Shown here: piece by piece, positions 54,048 through 61,453 of the stretch
Position numbering within the stretch: the first letter of the stretch is position 1
Layout of the letters: each line of letters starts with the position of its first letter
DNA from: Microbotryum violaceum
Taxonomy: Eukaryota
Length of the DNA: 64,000 bases
Assembly: GCA_001244265.2 (NCBI GenBank)
Contig: CDLV01000013.1
Location: forward strand, 682,001-746,000
Direction of reading: 5' to 3'
The notes under the pieces: generated by a model
What the model was told of the DNA's origin: nothing
Database searches by the model: none
The model's input: the letters and a program-made list of their open reading frames with translations, nothing else
Translations under genes and position numbers: made by a program

Positions 54048-54488
54048 GGTGTCGTCCTCTGGCGCGAGGTTGGTCGAGGGATGACGGTCATGAAGAGGAG
54101 CGTCCGCGCGTCGCTCATCGCGGCTCCATCCTCGACCTGCGATGTGGAGCCGAATTGAAAGGGGTGCCGAGGAATGCCAGCAAATTGACTACTGGCGTCT
54201 GGAAAAGGGAGATATCTCCCACCGACCAGATAAATTGCTTCGGGCGAAAATTGGGCACTAGAGGATTCAGCTCAGAAGTAGCCCATAAATTCCGAAAGGC
54301 CGCGTCACCACTGCACTGTTAAAAGGTCCTTCTTGTTCTGTGCCATGTATGTGCGCGCCAAGTGGGACTCACGTAGTATCGAGGTTCGTAGATGCCCAAG
54401 TATACAAGAAGCGACGGAGCAAGGTGGAGCGGCCCCCTATCCGCGAGCGAGGCTCTCGTCCTCGCCGAGGATAAAAAGAAATACTTGG

Positions 54489-54579
54489 CGACATTGACAG
54501 GATTCGAACCTGCGCTCCCGTAGGGAAACAGATACTTGGAATTCAAATCTGTCGCGTTAACCAACTCCGCCACAATGTC
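54489..54579 (-). tRNA. tRNA-Ser(TGA) with ~8-nt intron and long variable arm
   Basis: Reverse complement: acceptor GACATTG/CAATGTC, G73, A-box TGGCGGAGTTGG, ACAGA-TT-TGA-A[ttccaagt]A-TCTGT, variable arm TCCCTACGGGA, GGTTCGAATCC, T-run terminator. Confidence 0.92.
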
Positions 54580-54643
54580 CAAAAGGCACTTCTAAGCCAT
54601 AGAATTTACTCTATAGCAAATCAACGACAAGTCACGTGACCTT

Positions 54644-54715
54644 GGTTGAGTAGCTCAGCGGTCAGAGCAACTCTGATTAATAGAGTGGACCTGAGTTCAA
54701 TTCTCAGTTCAGCCA
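54644..54715 (+). ncRNA. tRNA-like cloverleaf (pseudo-tRNA) with non-canonical anticodon loop GATTAAT
   Basis: Acceptor GGTTGAG/TTCAGCC+A, D arm GCTC-AGCGGTCA-GAGC, anticodon stem ACTCT/AGAGT, T arm CTGAG-TTCAATT-CTCAG; A and B boxes intact. Confidence 0.8.
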
Positions 54716-54722
54716 AACTTTC

Positions 54723-56352
54723 TTGAAGGTGGCGGATCTCTACCGGCGCGAGTTGTATGCGGGTGGGGGGTTTCACCTTTGGACGCCGCCGGCGGATGTG
54801 CTCGGCGACAACAGCGAGTACGATCGACGCGGGCTCCCGCAGCGACTGGCAATCGCGGCCTGGTACCGGTTCACTGTCGATCGACACAAGAACACGCCCT
54901 GGGCGGTGGCGTTGGCGGCAGGACGGCTCAACGTGCCTCCCCGGATCGGCACCAGCGCACCGCTCGAGGCGATTCTCCCCAAGCCCGTGGCCCGCTTCGC
55001 AATGGAGTAGCACCTTCCGGACCCGGTGCTTCCACAGCAGGCGAGCCAGTACAAGCTGCTGAACATGGCTCGACCGTACACCATCCGTCGCATCCGCCGG
55101 GTCCTGAACGCGAAGGCCTTTACCAACACGCTCGGGCTTAAGGGACCACCGCAGCCGGACGACCTCAGGAGCTTTTGGAAGGCGGCCAACTCGAAGGCAC
55201 TGACGGCGAGGGAGAGGGAAGTTTGGTTCAAGCTGATTCTCCGCTTCACCCCGACGCGCAAGCTGCAACATCAACAAAATCACGACACTTCTCCCGCGTG
55301 CCTCGTCTGCGAAGCGCCGGTGGACGACACCGACCACTACTTTTTCGGCTGCGTTGACTCGCGGAATGTCTGGATCGCGGCAAGGGGCGTGCTCTGCCAC
55401 GCACTCGGGTGCGACACGATTGAGGACGCCCAGTACACGACACTGCAACGGCTCTTTGGCCTCCCCAAGCTCAAGGCCAAGCTCAGCGAACAGGAAGGGG
55501 CGGGCTGGACGATCGAGATGTTCACGGGGATGGTTTTGGAGATGATCAGCAGTGGGAGATGGAGGATGCAGAAGCACGGGACGAGGATGGAAAGCGTGGA
55601 GAGGAGGAGGGTGGTACTGGAGGAGAGGATGAAGTTGAGGGCGGGAGGAGCAAGGGGCGGGCGAGGGCAGTAGAGGCTGGGTTCGATTTCCCCCCCACCC
55701 CACCCGACACACACACACCATCACGCTTCATCTTCCAACAAAACACTGTATACTAAATATCTTGCTTTCACTTTTCATCTATTACAGGTCTGCTTTCGTT
55801 GCTCATGGACCGGCTCGCGATTTGGGATTGACTCGACGGTGGCTCGCGCTCTTTGGCTTCGGGGTTCTGAGTCAAGGGAGGGATCAGCAGACACAGGCAG
55901 AAAGTCGGCTTTGAGGGGCCAGGGACTGCTGAGGTGGAGGTTTTGAGGGGCCTCCACCGCGTCTTGTTGTGACCGAGCATAGACTTAGGACTTCGCGGGT
56001 CAGGGTAGCTGCGCAGTCGCTCTCTTGTCTTTGTCTCGACCGAGTTGGGAAGTGACGGCGGGGTGGGTCTCTTGTCGTTAGTCAATTATTTTTGTACTCT
56101 TTCTCTTTCTCTCTCTGTCTTCTTCTCTCTCTCTTCTTCTCTCTCTCATTCGTCTCCTGGGGGGAGCAACCGCTTGGCTCGGGCACTTGAATCCCAAGTA
56201 TCGGATTGGTGGACACCGGCCCGTTTCTCGCATCTTGCGGGCGGTTTGTGTTATCATCGTCGACTTCCATCTAGTTTTTTCCGTAGGCCAAATAGGGGGA
56301 ACATGAATTGGGGGCAATATGATGAACAGTTTCTACAAAAAACAAAAAAAAA
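54723..56352 (+). mobile_element. 5'-truncated non-LTR (L1/Tx1-like) retrotransposon, family A copy 1: ORF2 C-terminus with zf-RVT, ~660-nt 3' UTR, poly(A)
   Basis: FWK..NS...REREVWFKL...PT...CLVC..DDTDHYFFGC (CCHC zf-RVT); in-frame TAG at 55008-55010; ends TTCTAC-A6CA9. Confidence 0.85.
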
Positions 56353-57691
56353 TCCGATCGACCCGCCGCAGCGCCTTCCGAGACCGGCTCTCCCAGACCA
56401 ATCAATACAATACAACTTGCTCAGCATGGATCGGCCATACACCATCCGTCGCGTCCGCCGAGTCTTGAATGCAAAGGCCTTCACCGACACGATCGGTTTC
56501 AGGGACTCGCTACAGCCCGACGATATCAAGGGATTCTGGAAGGGGGTCAACTCGAAGGCATTGACGGCGAGGGAACGCGAGGTGTGGTTCAAGCTCATCA
56601 GAAACTTCACCCCGACTCGGAGTCTGCAGTTTCATCAAAAGCACGACGACTCGCCCGCGTGCCTCGTCTGTGGAGCGCCCAAGGACGATCGGGAGCACTA
56701 CTTCTTCGACTGCGTTGACTCTGGGAACGTTTGGATCGCCGCAAGGAGCGTGCTCTGCGACGCACTGGGGCTCGACACGATCGACAACACGCATTACACG
56801 GCTGTTCAACGCATGTTCGGACTTCCGAAGCTCAAGGCCAGTCTGCGCGATCAAGAAGGAGCGGGGAGGACGATCGAAATATTCACCGGGCTGGTCTTGG
56901 AGATGATCAACAGCGGGAGGTGGGGGATGCAGAAGTGGGGGACGAGGACGGCGGGTGTTGGGAGGAGGAGGATCATCTTGGAGGAGAGGTTGAAACTGAG
57001 GGCGGGAGGAGCTTGGGGAGGAGAGGGCAGTAGAGGCTGGGTTCGACTTTCCCCCCACCACCACCACACACACACACACCAAATTCTCGTGACATCATTT
57101 TCTCTTACTGTACACTAAACAGATCGCTTTAATCTTTCATTTGTTACAGGTTCACCGTTGCGGATCATGGACCATCTCGCGATTTGGCGTCGACTCGGTG
57201 TGGCTCGCGCTCTTCGGCTTCGGGGTTCTGAGTCATGGGAGGGATCAGCGGACACAGGCAGAAAGTCGGCTTTGAGGGGCCAGGGACTGCCGATGGGGGA
57301 GGTTTTGAGGGACCTTCACCGCGTCTTGTTGTGACTGAGCAGAGACTTGGAGCGTCGAGGGTCGTGGTGGTTGCGCAGTCGTGCTCTTGTCTGCGTCTCG
57401 ACCGAGTGGGAAGTGGCTGTGGGGTGGGCCTTCTGTCGTTGGTACATTTCTTTTCTTTCTTTTTTTCTCTTCATCTCTCTTTCTCTCTCTCATTAGTCTC
57501 CTGGGGGGAGCAACCGCTTGGCTAGGGCATTTGAATCCGAATCTCGGATTGGTGGACTTGGCTCGTTTCTCGCACTTTTGCGGGCGGTTTGTGTTATCAT
57601 CGTAGTCTTCCATCTAGTATTTCCGTAGGCCAAAACAGGGGGAACAGGAACTGGGGGCAATATGATGAACGTTTTCTACCAAAAAAAAAAA
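56353..57691 (+). mobile_element. Family A copy 2, shorter 5'-truncated non-LTR fragment
   Basis: Collinear with copy 1 (CLVCGAPKDDREHYFFDC), same 3' UTR, ends TTCTACC-A11. Confidence 0.85.
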
Positions 57692-57802
57692 TCCTACCAA
57701 AAAAAACCCCGGTTCGTCGTTGCTTTATTGCCTCTTTTAGCTCTTTTTGTAGCGATTCTAAACCCGAAGGATCGTAATTTATGAGACCCCCCCCCCCCCC
57801 CC

Positions 57803-57835
<33 letters not shown>

Positions 57836-58032
57836 GGTTGTGGTCATCATCGTGCATACTGGGCAGCATCTCCTTTATTTCCGTAGGGGGTTTTCTCGTC
57901 TTGCAAATTAGCGATGAGTTTCATACAAAAAAATCTCGCATCTTGCGGGCGGTTTGTGTTCTCATCATGGACTTCCATCTAAGTTTTCCGTAGGCCAAAT
58001 AGGGGGAACATGAACTGGGGGCAATATGATGA
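57692..58032 (+). mobile_element. Cluster of very short retroelement 3' ends
   Basis: TCCTACC-A8 (57692-57706); unrelated ~80 nt plus C17-A31 (57707-57834); diverged A-like end ...TTCCGTAGG...GATGAGTTTCATAC-A7 (57835-57933); family A terminal ~100 nt without tail (57934-58032). Confidence 0.7.
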
Positions 58033-58751
58033 GCTCCAGATGCGGGCACATGTTCTGCCCACTGCTTCGCGATGTTCAGAGAGACTGGGGACCTCACCGG
58101 AGTGTGTGATATGTGGAGCAGAGGAAGAAACAGAGAAACACGCGTTTGGAGAGTGCCCATCGGGACAAGAACTTCGTGACAAAATTGGTCAGGAACTGTA
58201 TCGGGCTACGCGAAGCGAACTCGAGGCACGGCAACAAGGATAGACTGACCTGTAGATACAGGAGCTATGTACCTTTGCTGCCAAACTGGTGAGGGCACAT
58301 TTGTGGTGGTTTGCGACGCCAATGATACCAAAACCGGATATCTACTGGACTCTAGACGAGCGATCGCGGACGCGGCTGGACCGGACATGGCATCATGAGC
58401 TGATCAAAGGGGCTGGGAGAATTTGGGGCGGCCGCATGCGAAATTGGTGGACATTCCAACAGAATATCGAGTAGTATACCTCACTGGTGGAGGCGATGGT
58501 GGCAAGCTTGCCCCATCTACCCTCAGGAGCCGGGAGCCGAGGGGGAGGAGGGAAACTGGTGTAAACCCTGAGAAATGGGGGCATCAGTCCTAATCCCAGC
58601 GAGGCAATGGCCCGTATACAATATGGGTGTATGATATGTCATGTTATGGTGGTCCAGCGGATCTAGCGTTTGTTAGATTCTGTCTTTGAATAAGACTAGC
58701 TGGAATTTATGACTTTAAACATTTAAACAAGTTCTACAAAAAAAAAAAAAA
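58033..58751 (+). mobile_element. Second non-LTR family (B), degenerate zf-RVT fragment with poly(A)
   Basis: HVLPT...SPECVICGAEEETEKHAFGECP, downstream IWxxR; stops and frameshift; ends GTTCTAC-A14. Confidence 0.75.
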
Positions 58752-58760
58752 CCCTTTTTT

Positions 58761-59146
58761 GGCTGGGTTCGATTCACGCCCCCTCCTCATGCCCACCCAC
58801 ATACCAGATCAAAAAAAAACTGTATACCAAACTTTTCTTTCATCTTTTACAGGTCCACCCCTTCGCTGCTCACGGACTGTCTCGTGTTTTGGCATCAACT
58901 CGGGGTGGCGCGCGTTCTTCGGCGTCGAGGTTCTGAGTCAAGGGAGGGAGGGACAAAGGCAAGAAGTCGGGCCAGAGACTGCGTTTGAGCCCCCCCCCCC
59001 CCCCCCACCGCGTCTTGTTGCGACCAAGCAGAGACTAGGAGCGTCGTGGGTCGGGGTGGTGTCGGTGTCGCTCTCCTGTCTTTGTCTCAACCAGGTCGGG
59101 AAGTGGGTGCGGGATGGGCGTCCTGTCGTAGTAAGCCGGTCATTTC

Positions 59147-59216
<70 letters not shown>

Positions 59217-59435
59217 CGGGGGGTGAGCAACCGCTTGGCTGGGACACTGCAATCCCAAGTATTGGTTTGGTGGCCATTTCTTGAATATCGCAGGCCGCTT
59301 ATTGTATCACCGTCAATTTCATTTTTCCGTGGGCCAAACAGATATGATGAACAGTTTATACAGTACAACAAACATAATAATAATGTTCATAACGATAATA
59401 ATCATTAAACAATAATTAAACAATAAAAATAAAAA
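58761..59435 (+). mobile_element. Family A copy 3, 3' UTR only, most diverged, decayed A-rich tail
   Basis: Starts GGCTGGGTTCGA; shares GGTTCTGAGTCAAGGGAGGGA, CACCGCGTCTTGTTG, GAGCAACCGCTTGGCT, TTCCGT.GGCCAAA and ATATGATGAACAGTTT with copies 1 and 2. Confidence 0.8.
59153..59213 (+). repeat. (CT)n microsatellite, ~30 units, inside retroelement copy 3
   Basis: Direct read; corresponds to imperfect CT tracts at 56096-56147 and 57446-57491. Confidence 0.95.
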
Positions 59436-60276
59436 CAGGTCAAAAGAGCTTGTTTTATTCTACAGTAACTCAACCTGACATGTGTGAATCTACGGGGATC
59501 CCATACAGCTTACTTGGGCATGCCTCCAAGGTTTATTATATTCTGGAAACCTGACTCTCAGATAGCGACAGACACGTGCATTGCTATCAAACGGCTTTTA
59601 CCTTGACTGCCTTTGCTGTGCGGCGCTCGCATAGCACGTTCATGGCGAACCCACAGGCAGATTTTGTAAAAAGTGAGGCTACTTGAGCAAGGCAATGCTC
59701 CTTCAGTGGGGGCCTGACGTCCCGTCAAGAGGGGTCAAATGCGCTGGTCCCCGCTGCGAGATCGTGACGAGATCAGCGCAGGATCGCCGATCCAAGCTTT
59801 GCACGTGTCGTCCCCGGCCATCGCGCTTCGCGTCGTTCGAAAGTCAAGGAGGTGTTGAAGTTGATGCGATAGTCCCGGTTATGGCGTATGAAGCCGGTAT
59901 CCGATTCAGTAAAATGACTCCTCTTGAGGCAGGGCTCAGGTCCGTCTCCTCCGACTCGGAGGACCGTTCCGGTAACGTGAAACGTGACTCCGTCGTCTTC
60001 CTTTCGAATGGCCGGGGGCTGGTTTTGACTTTGATGACCGACCACCAGTCGACACCGCCGAGTAATGTCGCGCCGCGCACGCCATCGGGAACCGTTGCGT
60101 CAGCGCGCGCGAGCGAACGTTCGCTCAGCTCTACGGTGCTGCTCCCTTTCACTGCTTCTTAACTCTTTCGTACTCGCATCATCTCACACCATCACGAGCA
60201 CTCTACCCATCGGGCTCAGGGGTCCTCTTAAGGCCCAATTGTCGTGTGTACCGCTATCGCCTTCTTGCTGCGTCTT

Positions 60277-61453
60277 ATGCCGCAAGAGACTCCTCGGTCG
60301 CCCTACTATCTCCGCCCTGAACATCAGCCGGGCGCTTCAGCCGAGGCTCGGGCTTTTTTGTGGGTGAGCAGTAGCAGCTTGCGCCCTCGCAGCTCTAGTT
60401 CATCACTCCTGCCGCACAACTTCGCTAACACTTTCTCACTCCCTTCCCTCATGCGTCACCAGCCAGTTCACGGCACTATGCAGGTCTTCTACCTCGACGA
60501 TCCCGAGACATCGCTTTACGCTCAGGCTGAACTTCGACATGTCGGCGAGAAGGCTCCCCCAATCACCGACTCATCCTTGCCCGACGCGAGGTACTTCCCT
60601 CAGCGTACACCCTCGTCCTCCTCGTCATCGTCCTCGGCCTCGTCGTCAGTTTCGTCATGCAGTTCGAGCTCGACCGACTTTTACTCGACTGAACACGACC
60701 AACATCATGCTGCGAAGTTGGCCTCTGCTGCCTCGGCCAACGAGAAACCCCGAACTTGGCACCCGGCTTCGGCCCAACAGGAGCATCCACGTCACACCCC
60801 CACCACCTCCGCCGCTGGCGTCCACGAACCTAGGTCCGGTCGAGCACTTCACCCACTCTTTCCACCCTGGTGCTCTTTCACCAAGATCCTCCCCAGTCCA
60901 ACGACCCCCACCTCTTCCGCCTCGGTGTCCCCAAGGTGAGTCCGACTCCTGCCCCCCCCCCCACCCCCACTGCGAACGATGAGGCAGTTCAGCCGCTAGA
61001 GGCTTTTTGGCCCGGTCGCCTCCATATCCGAGTTGACTAAAAGCTAATGTATCACATGACTCATGTCCGCTTAGAAACGTTATCCAAAACAAAAGTTCAG
61101 ACGTCCCTGACCCATCGTCACCTCGACCTCATGTAGCACCCGCCCCGGCCCCGCTCAAGCGCAGCAAGCCCATGCCCCTGCCTGTACTACCCCTGTCCTC
61201 GGCTACGGGCAGCAGCACCGCCACCCGTCGTCCACCAGCTCCGGGCTCGCGTGAAGCCGCGGAAGAGGCTCGCCGAGGTCGCAACCGCTGGCCACGTCTC
61301 CTCTGGAACTCGCAGCTTGATGCCGAGGCGCTGGACGTGCTGCGCGCGTACCACGAGCGTGCCGTCGGTGGACCTTTGCCCATTCTCCACCCCGACGATA
61401 GTCCCAAGGCAGTCGCCGCGTGGAGTCGTCGTCTCGAATCGGCTGGACTCTGA
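60277..61453 (+). CDS. Hypothetical Ser/Pro-rich protein, about 3 exons
   Basis: ATG 60277, GTGAGC and GTGAGT donors, ordered segments QVFYLDDPETSLYAQ and GRNRWPRLLWNSQLD. Confidence 0.55.

What the first reader, a model, noticed from the sequence alone, without database searches (positions are those of the whole stretch)
54489..59435. Pol III-gene-anchored stack of non-LTR retrotransposon insertions (possible tRNA-targeting system)
Seen: the only mobile DNA recognised in 64 kb is piled at one spot. It starts ~8 nt after a tRNA-like gene and ~143 nt upstream of tRNA-Ser. At least 7 fragments lie head-to-tail in one orientation with 5' ends facing the tRNA genes. They come from at least two ORF families, and most end in a TAC(C)-poly(A) motif. 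Copies 1 and 2 differ at many synonymous sites and truncate at different points, so they look like independent insertions rather than tandem duplication. The distal copy is the most decayed. Known: Dictyostelium TRE5/TRE3 non-LTR elements and yeast Ty1/Ty3 target tRNA genes. Inference: an L1/Tx1-like fungal lineage repeatedly inserts at a fixed position relative to Pol III genes and pushes older copies outward. I do not know of this being described for fungal non-LTR elements.
Basis: partly seen in the sequence, partly recalled or inferred. Interest (0 to 1): 0.85.

Follow-up and report, generated by a model that had tools for sequence, protein, structure and literature searches.

The report
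Retrotransposon pile-up beside tRNA genes
In an anther-smut fungus (Microbotryum), cut-down copies of L1-like jumping genes lie head-to-tail about 64 bases in front of a tRNA gene, and they seem to have gone in one after another at that same spot, much as tRNA-seeking elements of social amoebae do, but a whole-genome count is still missing.

Summary
Between 54,725 and about 59,435 lie 7-8 5'-truncated, A-tailed non-LTR fragments, all on the + strand. They are the only repeats in the 64 kb. They start 9 nt after a tRNA-like gene and 145 nt upstream of tRNA-Ser(UGA). The organism is Microbotryum, and the main family (A) is L1-like: APE endonuclease, RT and zf-RVT.

Copies A1 and A2 are independent insertions (dN/dS 0.21, dS 0.90). 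The most distal copy is the most decayed.

In a related species, the flank is joined within 3 nt of the point where the tRNA-like gene starts here. There it meets a differently truncated A copy, and the tRNA-like gene is absent. So the true boundary is probably 64 nt upstream of tRNA-Ser, in head-to-head orientation, as for Dictyostelium TRE5 and NLTR-B.

Two Microbotryum gene models appear to read through an antisense tRNA about 45-64 nt before another A copy.

Against a strict rule: one full-length A copy sits inside a Copia gag gene with no tRNA on its contig. Other A copies follow LTR-element ORFs. Head-to-tail stacks are common in general.

No genome was held, so there is no genome-wide statistic. 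Verdict: tRNA-upstream targeting is likely (about 0.6) but not exclusive. If true it is a new variant of a known kind.

The parts
54489..54579 (-). tRNA-Ser(UGA) gene with an 8-nt intron and a long variable arm. CCA is encoded just after it (54486-54488). Its 5' end faces the stack.
   Evidence: Rfam 53.6 bits; alignment; ARAGORN -i reads it as Phe(gaa) with a 6-nt intron; exact B box at 54500-54510
54580..54643 (.). 64-nt spacer between the tRNA-Ser 5' end and the first inserted base. It is single copy and shared with a related species up to 54640-54643.
   Evidence: the X17 flank contig ends at 54643. X16 contig 17 aligns up to 54640, then has 2 letters, then family A sequence.
54644..54724 (+). 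tRNA-like gene (54644-54715; anticodon loop with A33 and 'UUA') plus a 9-nt trailer. It is multicopy in the genome and is probably the 5' part of the newest insertion (chimera or 5' transduction).
   Evidence: Summed depth at 54682 is about 51x (X17) and about 64x (X11) single copy. Two X17 contigs share the trailer to 54722 and then run into a T-rich stretch.
54725..56352 (+). A1: 5'-truncated family A copy. It holds the last 316 codons of ORF2 (private in-frame TAG at 55008-55010; normal stop at 55671-55673), a 3'UTR of about 660 nt, and the tail TTTCTAC-A6CA9.
   Evidence: tblastn: 93.8% to P0004 residues 1648-1955; zf-RVT E 3.6e-6; loose ends at 54725 in 4 of 4 runs; other copies have C at 55008
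56353..57691 (+). A2: 5'-truncated copy of a second A subfamily. It holds the last ~226 codons, with a 1-nt deletion near 57014 that shifts the last codons, then the 3'UTR and the tail TTTTCTACC-A11.
   Evidence: 79% identical to A1 over 1354 nt; 93.5% to P0001/P0033; dN/dS 0.21 against A1; extra G after 57014 in other copies
57692..57713 (+). Mini-tail TCCTACC-A8 (57692-57706) and a 7-nt filler (57707-57713). The mini-tail may be a doubled end of A2 rather than a separate insertion.
   Evidence: P0004 begins with the translation of a similar doubled tail.
57714..57834 (+). C: the last 121 nt of another LINE family, ending in C17 A31.
   Evidence: Other copies run on 5' of 57714/57715 in 3 runs; depth is about 100x single copy in X17
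57835..57933 (+). D: the last ~99 nt of a further related LINE family, with tail TTTCATAC-A7.
   Evidence: D-like ends followed by A copies are seen at other single-copy-depth loci (joints).
57934..58032 (+). A3: 99 nt from near the 3' end of family A, cut 13 nt before its tail by B. The rest of its tail is read as 58727-58751 (an inference).
   Evidence: 93% identical to A1 56226-56325. The sequence after B resembles the A tail.
58033..58726 (+). B: 5'-truncated, decayed copy of a different LINE-like family with a weak zf-RVT match, nested in A3.
   Evidence: Pfam E 8.7e-5, below the cut-off. An X11 contig of another B copy runs on 5' of 58032; other copies differ from one another after 58720; depth about 7-10x. 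No protein relatives.
58752..59435 (+). A4: 3'UTR-only family A copy, the most diverged. It has a (CT)n expansion at about 59150-59215 and a decayed A-rich tail at about 59363-59435.
   Evidence: 72% identical to A1 over 575 nt; alignment; about single-copy depth in all 4 runs

Best explanation
The stack records repeated, oriented insertion of L1-like (APE-type) non-LTR retrotransposons at one site, about 64 nt upstream of an active Pol III gene, tRNA-Ser(UGA). The element's 5' end faces the tRNA gene, the geometry known from Dictyostelium TRE5-A and Polysphondylium NLTR-B.

Each new copy goes in between the tRNA-side flank and the previous copy. It leaves almost no target duplication, so older copies are pushed outward and may lose 5' sequence.

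The newest event brought in A1 joined at its 5' end to a copy of a multicopy tRNA-like Pol III transcript. That joint arose either by template switching at the end of reverse transcription or by read-through from a source locus.

Shown: the anatomy, the independence of the copies, and the family type. Inferred: the shared boundary in a second species, the order of events, and the antisense tRNAs read in two gene models. Also inferred: that the Pol III machinery (TFIIIB/TFIIIC), rather than the DNA sequence, is what is recognised. The preference is not exclusive.
For: (1) Geometry. All 7-8 fragments lie on the + strand. The first inserted base is 54644, 64 nt from the tRNA-Ser 5' end, in the opposite transcriptional orientation. 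The review table in PMC5911963 gives TRE5 at 40-54 bp and NLTR-B at 39-64 bp upstream of the mature tRNA sequence, with TRE5 in the opposite orientation (passages read).

(2) Growth at the tRNA side. A4, the most distal copy, has a decayed tail and about single-copy depth in 4 of 4 runs, so it has no relative at 85% or more, and its presence in other species is likely. A1 differs from its nearest DNA relative with dN/dS 0.22 and dS 0.21, so little of that difference is post-insertion decay.

(3) Second species. In organism D (X16), the single-copy flank contig runs to 54640, then has 2 letters, then A sequence matching 54958 onward. There is no tRNA-like gene, and the truncation point matches neither A1 nor A2. 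The flank there differs by about 10-14%, which is more than A1's possible age.

(4) Other loci. In P0062, residues 1-24 can encode an antisense type-I tRNA with 21 of 21 stem pairs and a forced anticodon GCC, and A homology starts about 58-61 nt further on. This strict test hit 2 of 162 proteins in antisense reading; the other hit lies inside a Copia gag ORF. P0085 carries the same six-residue T-arm translation as this window's tRNA-Ser. It also shows a 5/5 anticodon stem, a 7/7 acceptor stem, a length of 82 nt and CCA, and A starts about 46-64 nt further on.

(5) Independent insertions. A1 against A2 gives dN/dS 0.21 and dS 0.90.

(6) Blunt insertion. The full-length copy in L001 has a target duplication of at most 1 nt, which explains why the stack shows no duplications.
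Against: L001 is the only outside genomic locus recovered (1 of 1). It holds a near full-length A copy inside a Copia gag ORF, with no tRNA on the 12.4-kb contig and no B box beyond chance.

Gene models place LTR-element ORFs directly before A copies: P0033, P0028, P0045 and P0021/26.

Head-to-tail stacks are common in gene models (at least 15 of 162 start in, or cross, an upstream LINE tail). So a stack alone does not need a tRNA.

The tRNA readings from proteins are indirect. The strict test has about 1 false hit per 127,000 residues on each strand. The type-II test that P0085 passes also hit 5 other proteins in antisense reading and 1 in sense reading. Introns in the gene models could change the spacings.

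The join in organism D rests on 29 nt at a contig end.

Confidence: 0.6

Rival explanations
1. Self-nesting without Pol III targeting. The elements go into A-rich tails, or next to earlier copies, so any first insertion seeds a same-orientation stack. The nearness to tRNA genes is chance, or reflects a gene-free safe haven.
For: Stacks are common elsewhere. Outside the stack, A-runs are almost absent: 1 of 41 A8 matches. So old tails are the main A-rich targets for an L1-type endonuclease. L001 and the LTR fusions show insertion away from tRNAs.
Against: Tail insertion puts new copies to the right of old ones, so the leftmost copy should be the oldest. Here the rightmost copy (A4) is the most decayed, and the leftmost differs between species. 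The L001 target is not A-rich. This reading does not explain the antisense tRNAs read about 45-64 nt before two other copies.
Confidence: 0.2
2. A local hot spot not read by the element itself. Breaks or open chromatin next to a strongly transcribed tRNA gene (a replication-fork barrier or a nucleosome-free region) capture LINE cDNAs, or a particular DNA sequence at 54630-54643 is the endonuclease site.
For: The same boundary was used at least twice. Several unrelated LINE families (A, B?, C, D) sit in one stack, which fits a property of the site as well as a property of the element.
Against: All fragments share one orientation. The chance of 7 further fragments all matching the first at random is about 0.8% (my arithmetic). 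Similar spacing appears at two other, different tRNAs. The flanks of the window and L001 share no motif.
Confidence: 0.12
3. An artefact or a local duplication: the array is an assembly error or a tandem duplication of one insertion.
For: No short-read contig spans the stack.
Against: A1 and A2 are only 79% identical, with dS 0.90 and different truncation points. The fragments belong to at least four families. The flanks and A4 match independent contigs with 0 differences.
Confidence: 0.03

Closest known systems
TRE5-A (DRE) of Dictyostelium discoideum and NLTR-B of Polysphondylium pallidum
   Same: All are L1-type non-LTR elements with APE endonuclease, RT and a zinc finger, and an oligo(A) end. 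They insert tens of bases upstream of tRNA genes: TRE5 at 40-54 bp in the opposite transcriptional orientation, NLTR-B at 39-64 bp (PMC5911963, passages read). Here the distance is 64 nt and the orientation is opposite.
   Different: The host is a basidiomycete fungus. Nothing is known about a partner protein, whereas TRE5-A ORF1 binds TFIIIB. Copies also occur away from tRNA genes (L001). The evidence here is three loci, not a genome-wide pattern.
TRE3 and Skipper-2 of Dictyostelium (insertion downstream of tRNA genes)
   Same: If the tRNA-like gene were the resident target, A1 would lie 9 nt downstream of it in the same orientation. Skipper-2 inserts 8-23 bp downstream and TRE3 40-150 bp downstream, TRE3 in the same orientation as the tRNA gene (PMC5911963).
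   Different: In a related species the tRNA-like gene is absent at this junction. So it is more likely to be cargo than target.
   Same: A complete small Pol III transcript, ending in a short U/T-rich trailer, is fused directly to a 5'-truncated LINE in the same orientation.
   Different: Here the chimera lies at a site already used by earlier LINE insertions. The tRNA-like partner is itself multicopy, at about 50x depth.
Ty3, Ty1, Tj1 and the Yarrowia Ty3/gypsy elements
   Same: They are fungal retrotransposons that use Pol III genes as landmarks (PMC5911963).
   Different: They are LTR elements that use an integrase, not target-primed reverse transcription.
Ylli (Yarrowia lipolytica L1-like LINE)
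   Same: It is a fungal L1-like LINE with many 5'-truncated copies, poly(A) ends and no recognisable target-site duplication (PMC5014426, passages read).
   Different: The passages I read report no link to tRNA genes.

Membership tests
L1-like (APE-type) non-LTR retrotransposon | Reverse transcriptase of the LINE type | tested here: met
   The window copies are truncated before the RT. Full-length relatives (P0004, 93.8% identical to A1) carry RVT_1 at E 7.5e-16. The best solved relative is human L1 ORF2p at E 8e-22; R2 scores 1e-13.
L1-like (APE-type) non-LTR retrotransposon | N-terminal apurinic/apyrimidinic-type endonuclease | tested here: met
   Exo_endo_phos at E 4.5e-9 in P0004 residues 688-914. 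It is absent from the window copies because they are truncated.
L1-like (APE-type) non-LTR retrotransposon | C-terminal zinc-binding domain (zf-RVT) | tested here: met
   A1 scores E 3.6e-6 at 28.0 bits, against a cut-off of 27.5. A2 and B fall below the cut-off.
L1-like (APE-type) non-LTR retrotransposon | Variable 5' truncation and a 3' poly(A) tail | tested here: met
L1-like (APE-type) non-LTR retrotransposon | Target-site duplication of several bases | tested here: not met
   None is seen at any junction of the stack. In L001 the duplication is at most 1 nt. This is not a universal feature of the group; Ylli also lacks one (PMC5014426).
Tx1 clade | Placement within Tx1 in an RT phylogeny | not tested
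   No reference set of LINE clades was at hand, so no tree was built.
tRNA gene-targeted non-LTR retroelement (TRE5 / NLTR-B type) | Insertion at a narrow distance (about 40-65 bp) upstream of the mature tRNA sequence | tested here: inconclusive
   The window gives 64 nt. P0062 gives about 58-61 nt and P0085 about 46-64 nt, both read from proteins. That is three loci only, and L001 has none.
tRNA gene-targeted non-LTR retroelement (TRE5 / NLTR-B type) | Fixed orientation relative to the tRNA gene | tested here: met
   The orientation is opposite (head-to-head) in the window and in both gene models.
tRNA gene-targeted non-LTR retroelement (TRE5 / NLTR-B type) | Most genomic copies are associated with tRNA genes | not testable with these tools
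   No genome is held. Contrary cases are L001 and the LTR-ORF fusions.
tRNA gene-targeted non-LTR retroelement (TRE5 / NLTR-B type) | Dependence on the Pol III complex (B box/TFIIIC; ORF1 binding to TFIIIB) | not testable with these tools
   This needs an experiment.
tRNA-derived SINE (considered for the tRNA-like gene) | tRNA-like head followed by a body and a LINE-derived 3' tail | tested here: not met
   Here the tRNA-like part is followed, after 9 nt, by an ORF fragment of A1, not by a SINE body or tail. Whether the other copies (about 50x depth) are SINEs is unknown.

The most novel reading that the evidence does not exclude
Several related L1-like families of Microbotryum have evolved, independently of the amoebae, tethering to the Pol III pre-initiation complex, so that they land about 60 nt upstream of tRNA genes. 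Working in that Pol III-rich setting, their reverse transcriptase also picks up nascent Pol III transcripts. This spreads a tRNA-like sequence to about 50 copies and creates LINE copies headed by a Pol III promoter. The invariant B-box-like motif at the start of the family A 3'UTR could be part of that link.
Probability: 0.2. Interest if true: 0.8.

Novelty: new variant of a known kind. Interest (0 to 1): 0.6.

Why it matters
tRNA-gene targeting by non-LTR elements is so far documented only in dictyostelid amoebae (table in PMC5911963; PMC5006619). In fungi it is known for LTR elements, which use an integrase. My four full-text searches on this point found no report of it for a fungal LINE.

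A fungal case would be a further independent origin of the same safe-haven strategy in a compact genome. It would rest on target-primed reverse transcription, in an organism with many sequenced species and strains. That would make the order and rate of insertions at single tRNA genes directly measurable.

It also bears on genome annotation. Many Microbotryum gene models are read-throughs of stacked LINE fragments.

Tried and rejected
Tools that were not available:
- Supplementary files of papers were not consulted. Those of PMC4469406 (TE annotation) may bear on copy numbers.

Searches that gave nothing:
- Family B found no protein relatives: 0 hits and 5 weak hits (best E 2.6e-6). It remains LINE-like only through a sub-threshold zf-RVT match and its tail.
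- A grep for translations of the tRNA-like gene in 52 gene models found 0 hits.
- A RIP-like index (TTG+CAA over TCG+CGA) gives no clear age ranking.
- B-box search: near the L001 insertion there is nothing beyond chance (10 matches against 7.4 expected). In the window there are 4 exact matches against 2.0 expected, one of them in tRNA-Ser.

Screens that were too loose:
- My first box-compatibility screen for tRNAs hidden in proteins was useless (72 B-box-compatible and 4,518 A-box-compatible sites).
- A cloverleaf screen that allowed introns and long arms hit nearly every protein.
- A first type-II scan missed P0085. The relaxed one is unspecific: 6 proteins hit in antisense reading (P0085 and 5 others) and 1 in sense reading.

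Candidates dropped:
- P0014 has a T-arm-like motif, but it lies in the 3' end of a C-like LINE just before its tail, so I rejected it as a tRNA.
- P0156 has a perfect antisense T arm but no clean cloverleaf, and its spacing is only a few nt. It is left as doubtful.
- P0081 and P0061 show no tRNA.

Readings considered and left aside:
- I read D plus A3 as possibly one composite unit, because another locus joins a D-like end to an A copy at the same A coordinate. This is unresolved.
- The idea that short C/T/G fillers after three tails are target duplications of the flank end could not be supported.
- Parts of the stretch without cover in X16 (59350-60500) and low cover in X14 (54436-54669) say nothing.

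Full report
**What is there**

Rfam finds two tRNAs in the 64-kb window, and they lie side by side.
- The first is at 54489-54579 on the minus strand. The alignment shows anticodon stem ACAGA/UCUGU, anticodon UGA, 8 extra bases after position 37 and a long variable arm, so it is tRNA-Ser(UGA) with an intron. ARAGORN missed it without introns. With introns it called it Phe(gaa).
- The second is at 54644-54715 on the plus strand. It folds as a cloverleaf, but its anticodon loop is GAUUAAU, with A at position 33 and 'UUA' as the anticodon. It is tRNA-like rather than a normal decoder.

**The stack**

- From 54725 to about 59435, every repeat in the window is packed together. All 6 off-diagonal self-matches lie there.
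- Reading the sequence with the repeat tables and the contigs of four public runs gives this order: A1, A2, a 15-nt mini-tail, C, D, A3 with B nested in it, and A4. All are on the plus strand.
- A1 and A2 carry the C-terminal part of a LINE ORF2 with zf-RVT.
- Apart from C, the fragments end in a TAC or TACC motif followed by an A-run; A4's A-run has decayed. All 5 exact matches to this motif in the window are stack tails, against 0.43 expected.
- A8 runs are almost confined to the stack: 40 of 41 overlapping matches.

**The organism and the family**

- All 52 longer protein relatives of the A1 ORF tail come from four Microbotryum species.
- Full-length relatives such as P0004 (93.8% identical to A1 over 308 residues) carry an APE-type endonuclease, an RT and zf-RVT.
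- The closest solved structure is human L1 ORF2p, at E 8e-22.
- Family A is very abundant. Summed contig depth over A1 and A2 is 100-400 times the single-copy flanks.

**Are the copies independent?**

Yes.
- A1 and A2 are 79% identical.
- Over 225 codons they differ with dN/dS 0.21 and dS 0.90. They therefore come from lineages that diverged under selection. They are not a local duplication.
- Each has one disabling lesion in what it retains. A1 has a private TAG at 55008, where other copies carry C. A2 has a 1-nt deletion near 57014.

**Where is the real boundary?**

- Contigs of other A copies in all four runs continue 5' of 54725, so A1 starts there, 9 nt after the tRNA-like gene.
- The tRNA-like gene is itself multicopy. 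Summed depth at 54682 is about 51 and about 64 times single copy in two organisms.
- Two contigs share the gene's trailer up to 54722 and then run into a T-rich stretch, as a Pol III terminator would.
- In organism D, the 51-kb single-copy flank contig aligns up to 54640. It then has two letters, and then family A sequence matching 54958 onward.
- So in organism D an A copy with another truncation point meets the flank within 3 nt of the place where the tRNA-like gene begins here, and the tRNA-like gene is missing.
- I therefore read 54643/54644, 64 nt upstream of tRNA-Ser, as the insertion site. The tRNA-like piece would be part of the newest insertion, gained by template switching or read-through. 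This is an inference, and the join in organism D rests on 29 nt at a contig end.

**Direction of growth**

- A4, the most distal copy, is 72% identical to A1. It has a decayed tail and about single-copy depth in all four runs, so it has no close relatives and is probably shared between species.
- A1 differs from its nearest DNA relative (L001) with dN/dS 0.22 and dS 0.21. By my estimate at most about 3% of that can be neutral decay.
- The flank of organism D differs by about 10-14%. So A1 is younger than that split, and it lies on the tRNA side of A4.
- Insertion into old tails would put the oldest copy nearest the tRNA, and that is not what is seen.

**Other loci**

No genome was held, so I used what could be reached.

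(a) One metagenome contig, L001, holds a near full-length A element that is 90% identical to A1.
- It splits a Copia-type gag ORF.
- Its target duplication is at most 1 nt.
- The contig holds no tRNA.
- So the family is not bound to tRNA genes.

(b) I examined 162 Microbotryum gene models that contain A sequence.
- At least 15 start in, or cross, the tail of an upstream LINE and then enter a variably truncated A copy, so stacks are common.
- Four kinds have LTR-element ORFs in front.
- P0062: the first 24 residues can encode, on the opposite strand, a type-I tRNA with all 21 stem pairs, and its anticodon is forced to GCC. A homology begins about 58-61 nt beyond the tRNA's 5' end.
- That strict test hit 2 of 162 proteins in antisense reading; the other hit is inside a Copia gag ORF. 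It hit 1 of the 145 proteins scanned in sense reading, inside an RT ORF. So the finding is suggestive, not proof.
- P0085 carries the same six-residue translation of the T arm as this window's tRNA-Ser. It also shows a 5/5 anticodon stem, a 7/7 acceptor stem, a length of 82 nt and CCA, and A starts about 46-64 nt further on.
- The relaxed type-II test that P0085 passes is unspecific.
- One further case (P0156) is doubtful, and one (P0014) was rejected.

**Comparison with known systems**

- The geometry matches TRE5 (40-54 bp upstream, opposite orientation) and NLTR-B (39-64 bp). In the review table I read, these and two other dictyostelid families are the only non-LTR elements listed as tRNA-targeting (PMC5911963, passages).
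- PMC5006619 (passages) counts six origins of tRNA targeting in dictyostelids and two in yeast.
- Four full-text searches gave no report of a fungal LINE with this habit. The Microbotryum genome paper gives LINE counts but does not contain the word tRNA (PMC4469406, passages).

**Verdict**

Repeated, oriented insertion about 64 nt upstream of tRNA-Ser is the best reading of this locus, and two other loci point the same way.
- The preference is not exclusive, and the genome-wide test remains to be done.

Noticed in passing
window 54644-54724: The tRNA-like gene (A33, anticodon 'UUA') is a repeat of its own. Summed contig depth is about 51x and about 64x single copy in two organisms, and about 4x and 10x in two others. 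Two other copies (X17 contigs) share its 3' trailer up to 54722. It may be a SINE head or a frequent partner in LINE chimeras.
   Followed up: partly
window 55680-55691 (also in A2, A4 and L001 8362-8372): The family A 3'UTR starts with GGTTCGATTTCC, a near match to the tRNA B box. Its core is invariant in all four aligned copies.
   Followed up: no
window 55674-56336 against 57032-57680: Parts of the 3'UTR are 85-92% identical between A1 and A2, although synonymous sites in the ORF are near saturation (pS 0.52). So the 3'UTR is under selection, as in LINEs whose RT recognises its own 3' end.
   Followed up: partly
window 54486-54488: CCA is encoded in the genome directly after the discriminator base of tRNA-Ser, even though the gene has an intron. 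The tRNA read from P0085 is also followed by a CCA-compatible codon.
   Followed up: no
window 56353; proteins P0062, P0092, P0088: Several independent copies of the A2 subfamily are cut within about 15 codons of the same place, near the residues ...SILPHPIDPP.... This could be a hot spot for the end of reverse transcription, or a short element that spreads as such.
   Followed up: no
L001 2779-9022: This is a near full-length family A element of about 6.2 kb. It has a 5'UTR of about 190 nt and an ORF1-like part with a zinc knuckle, followed by EN-RT. Its reading frames are broken into pieces.
   Followed up: partly
window 59150-59215 and 56090-56150: A CT-rich stretch in the family A 3'UTR has grown into a pure (CT)n microsatellite of about 33 units in A4.
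   Followed up: no
Microbotryum protein records (e.g. P0001, P0004, P0010, P0059, P0063, P0166): Many deposited gene models of 150-3,100 residues are read-throughs of stacked LINE fragments, LINE tails translated as lysine runs, and LTR-element ORFs. They are not host genes.
   Followed up: partly
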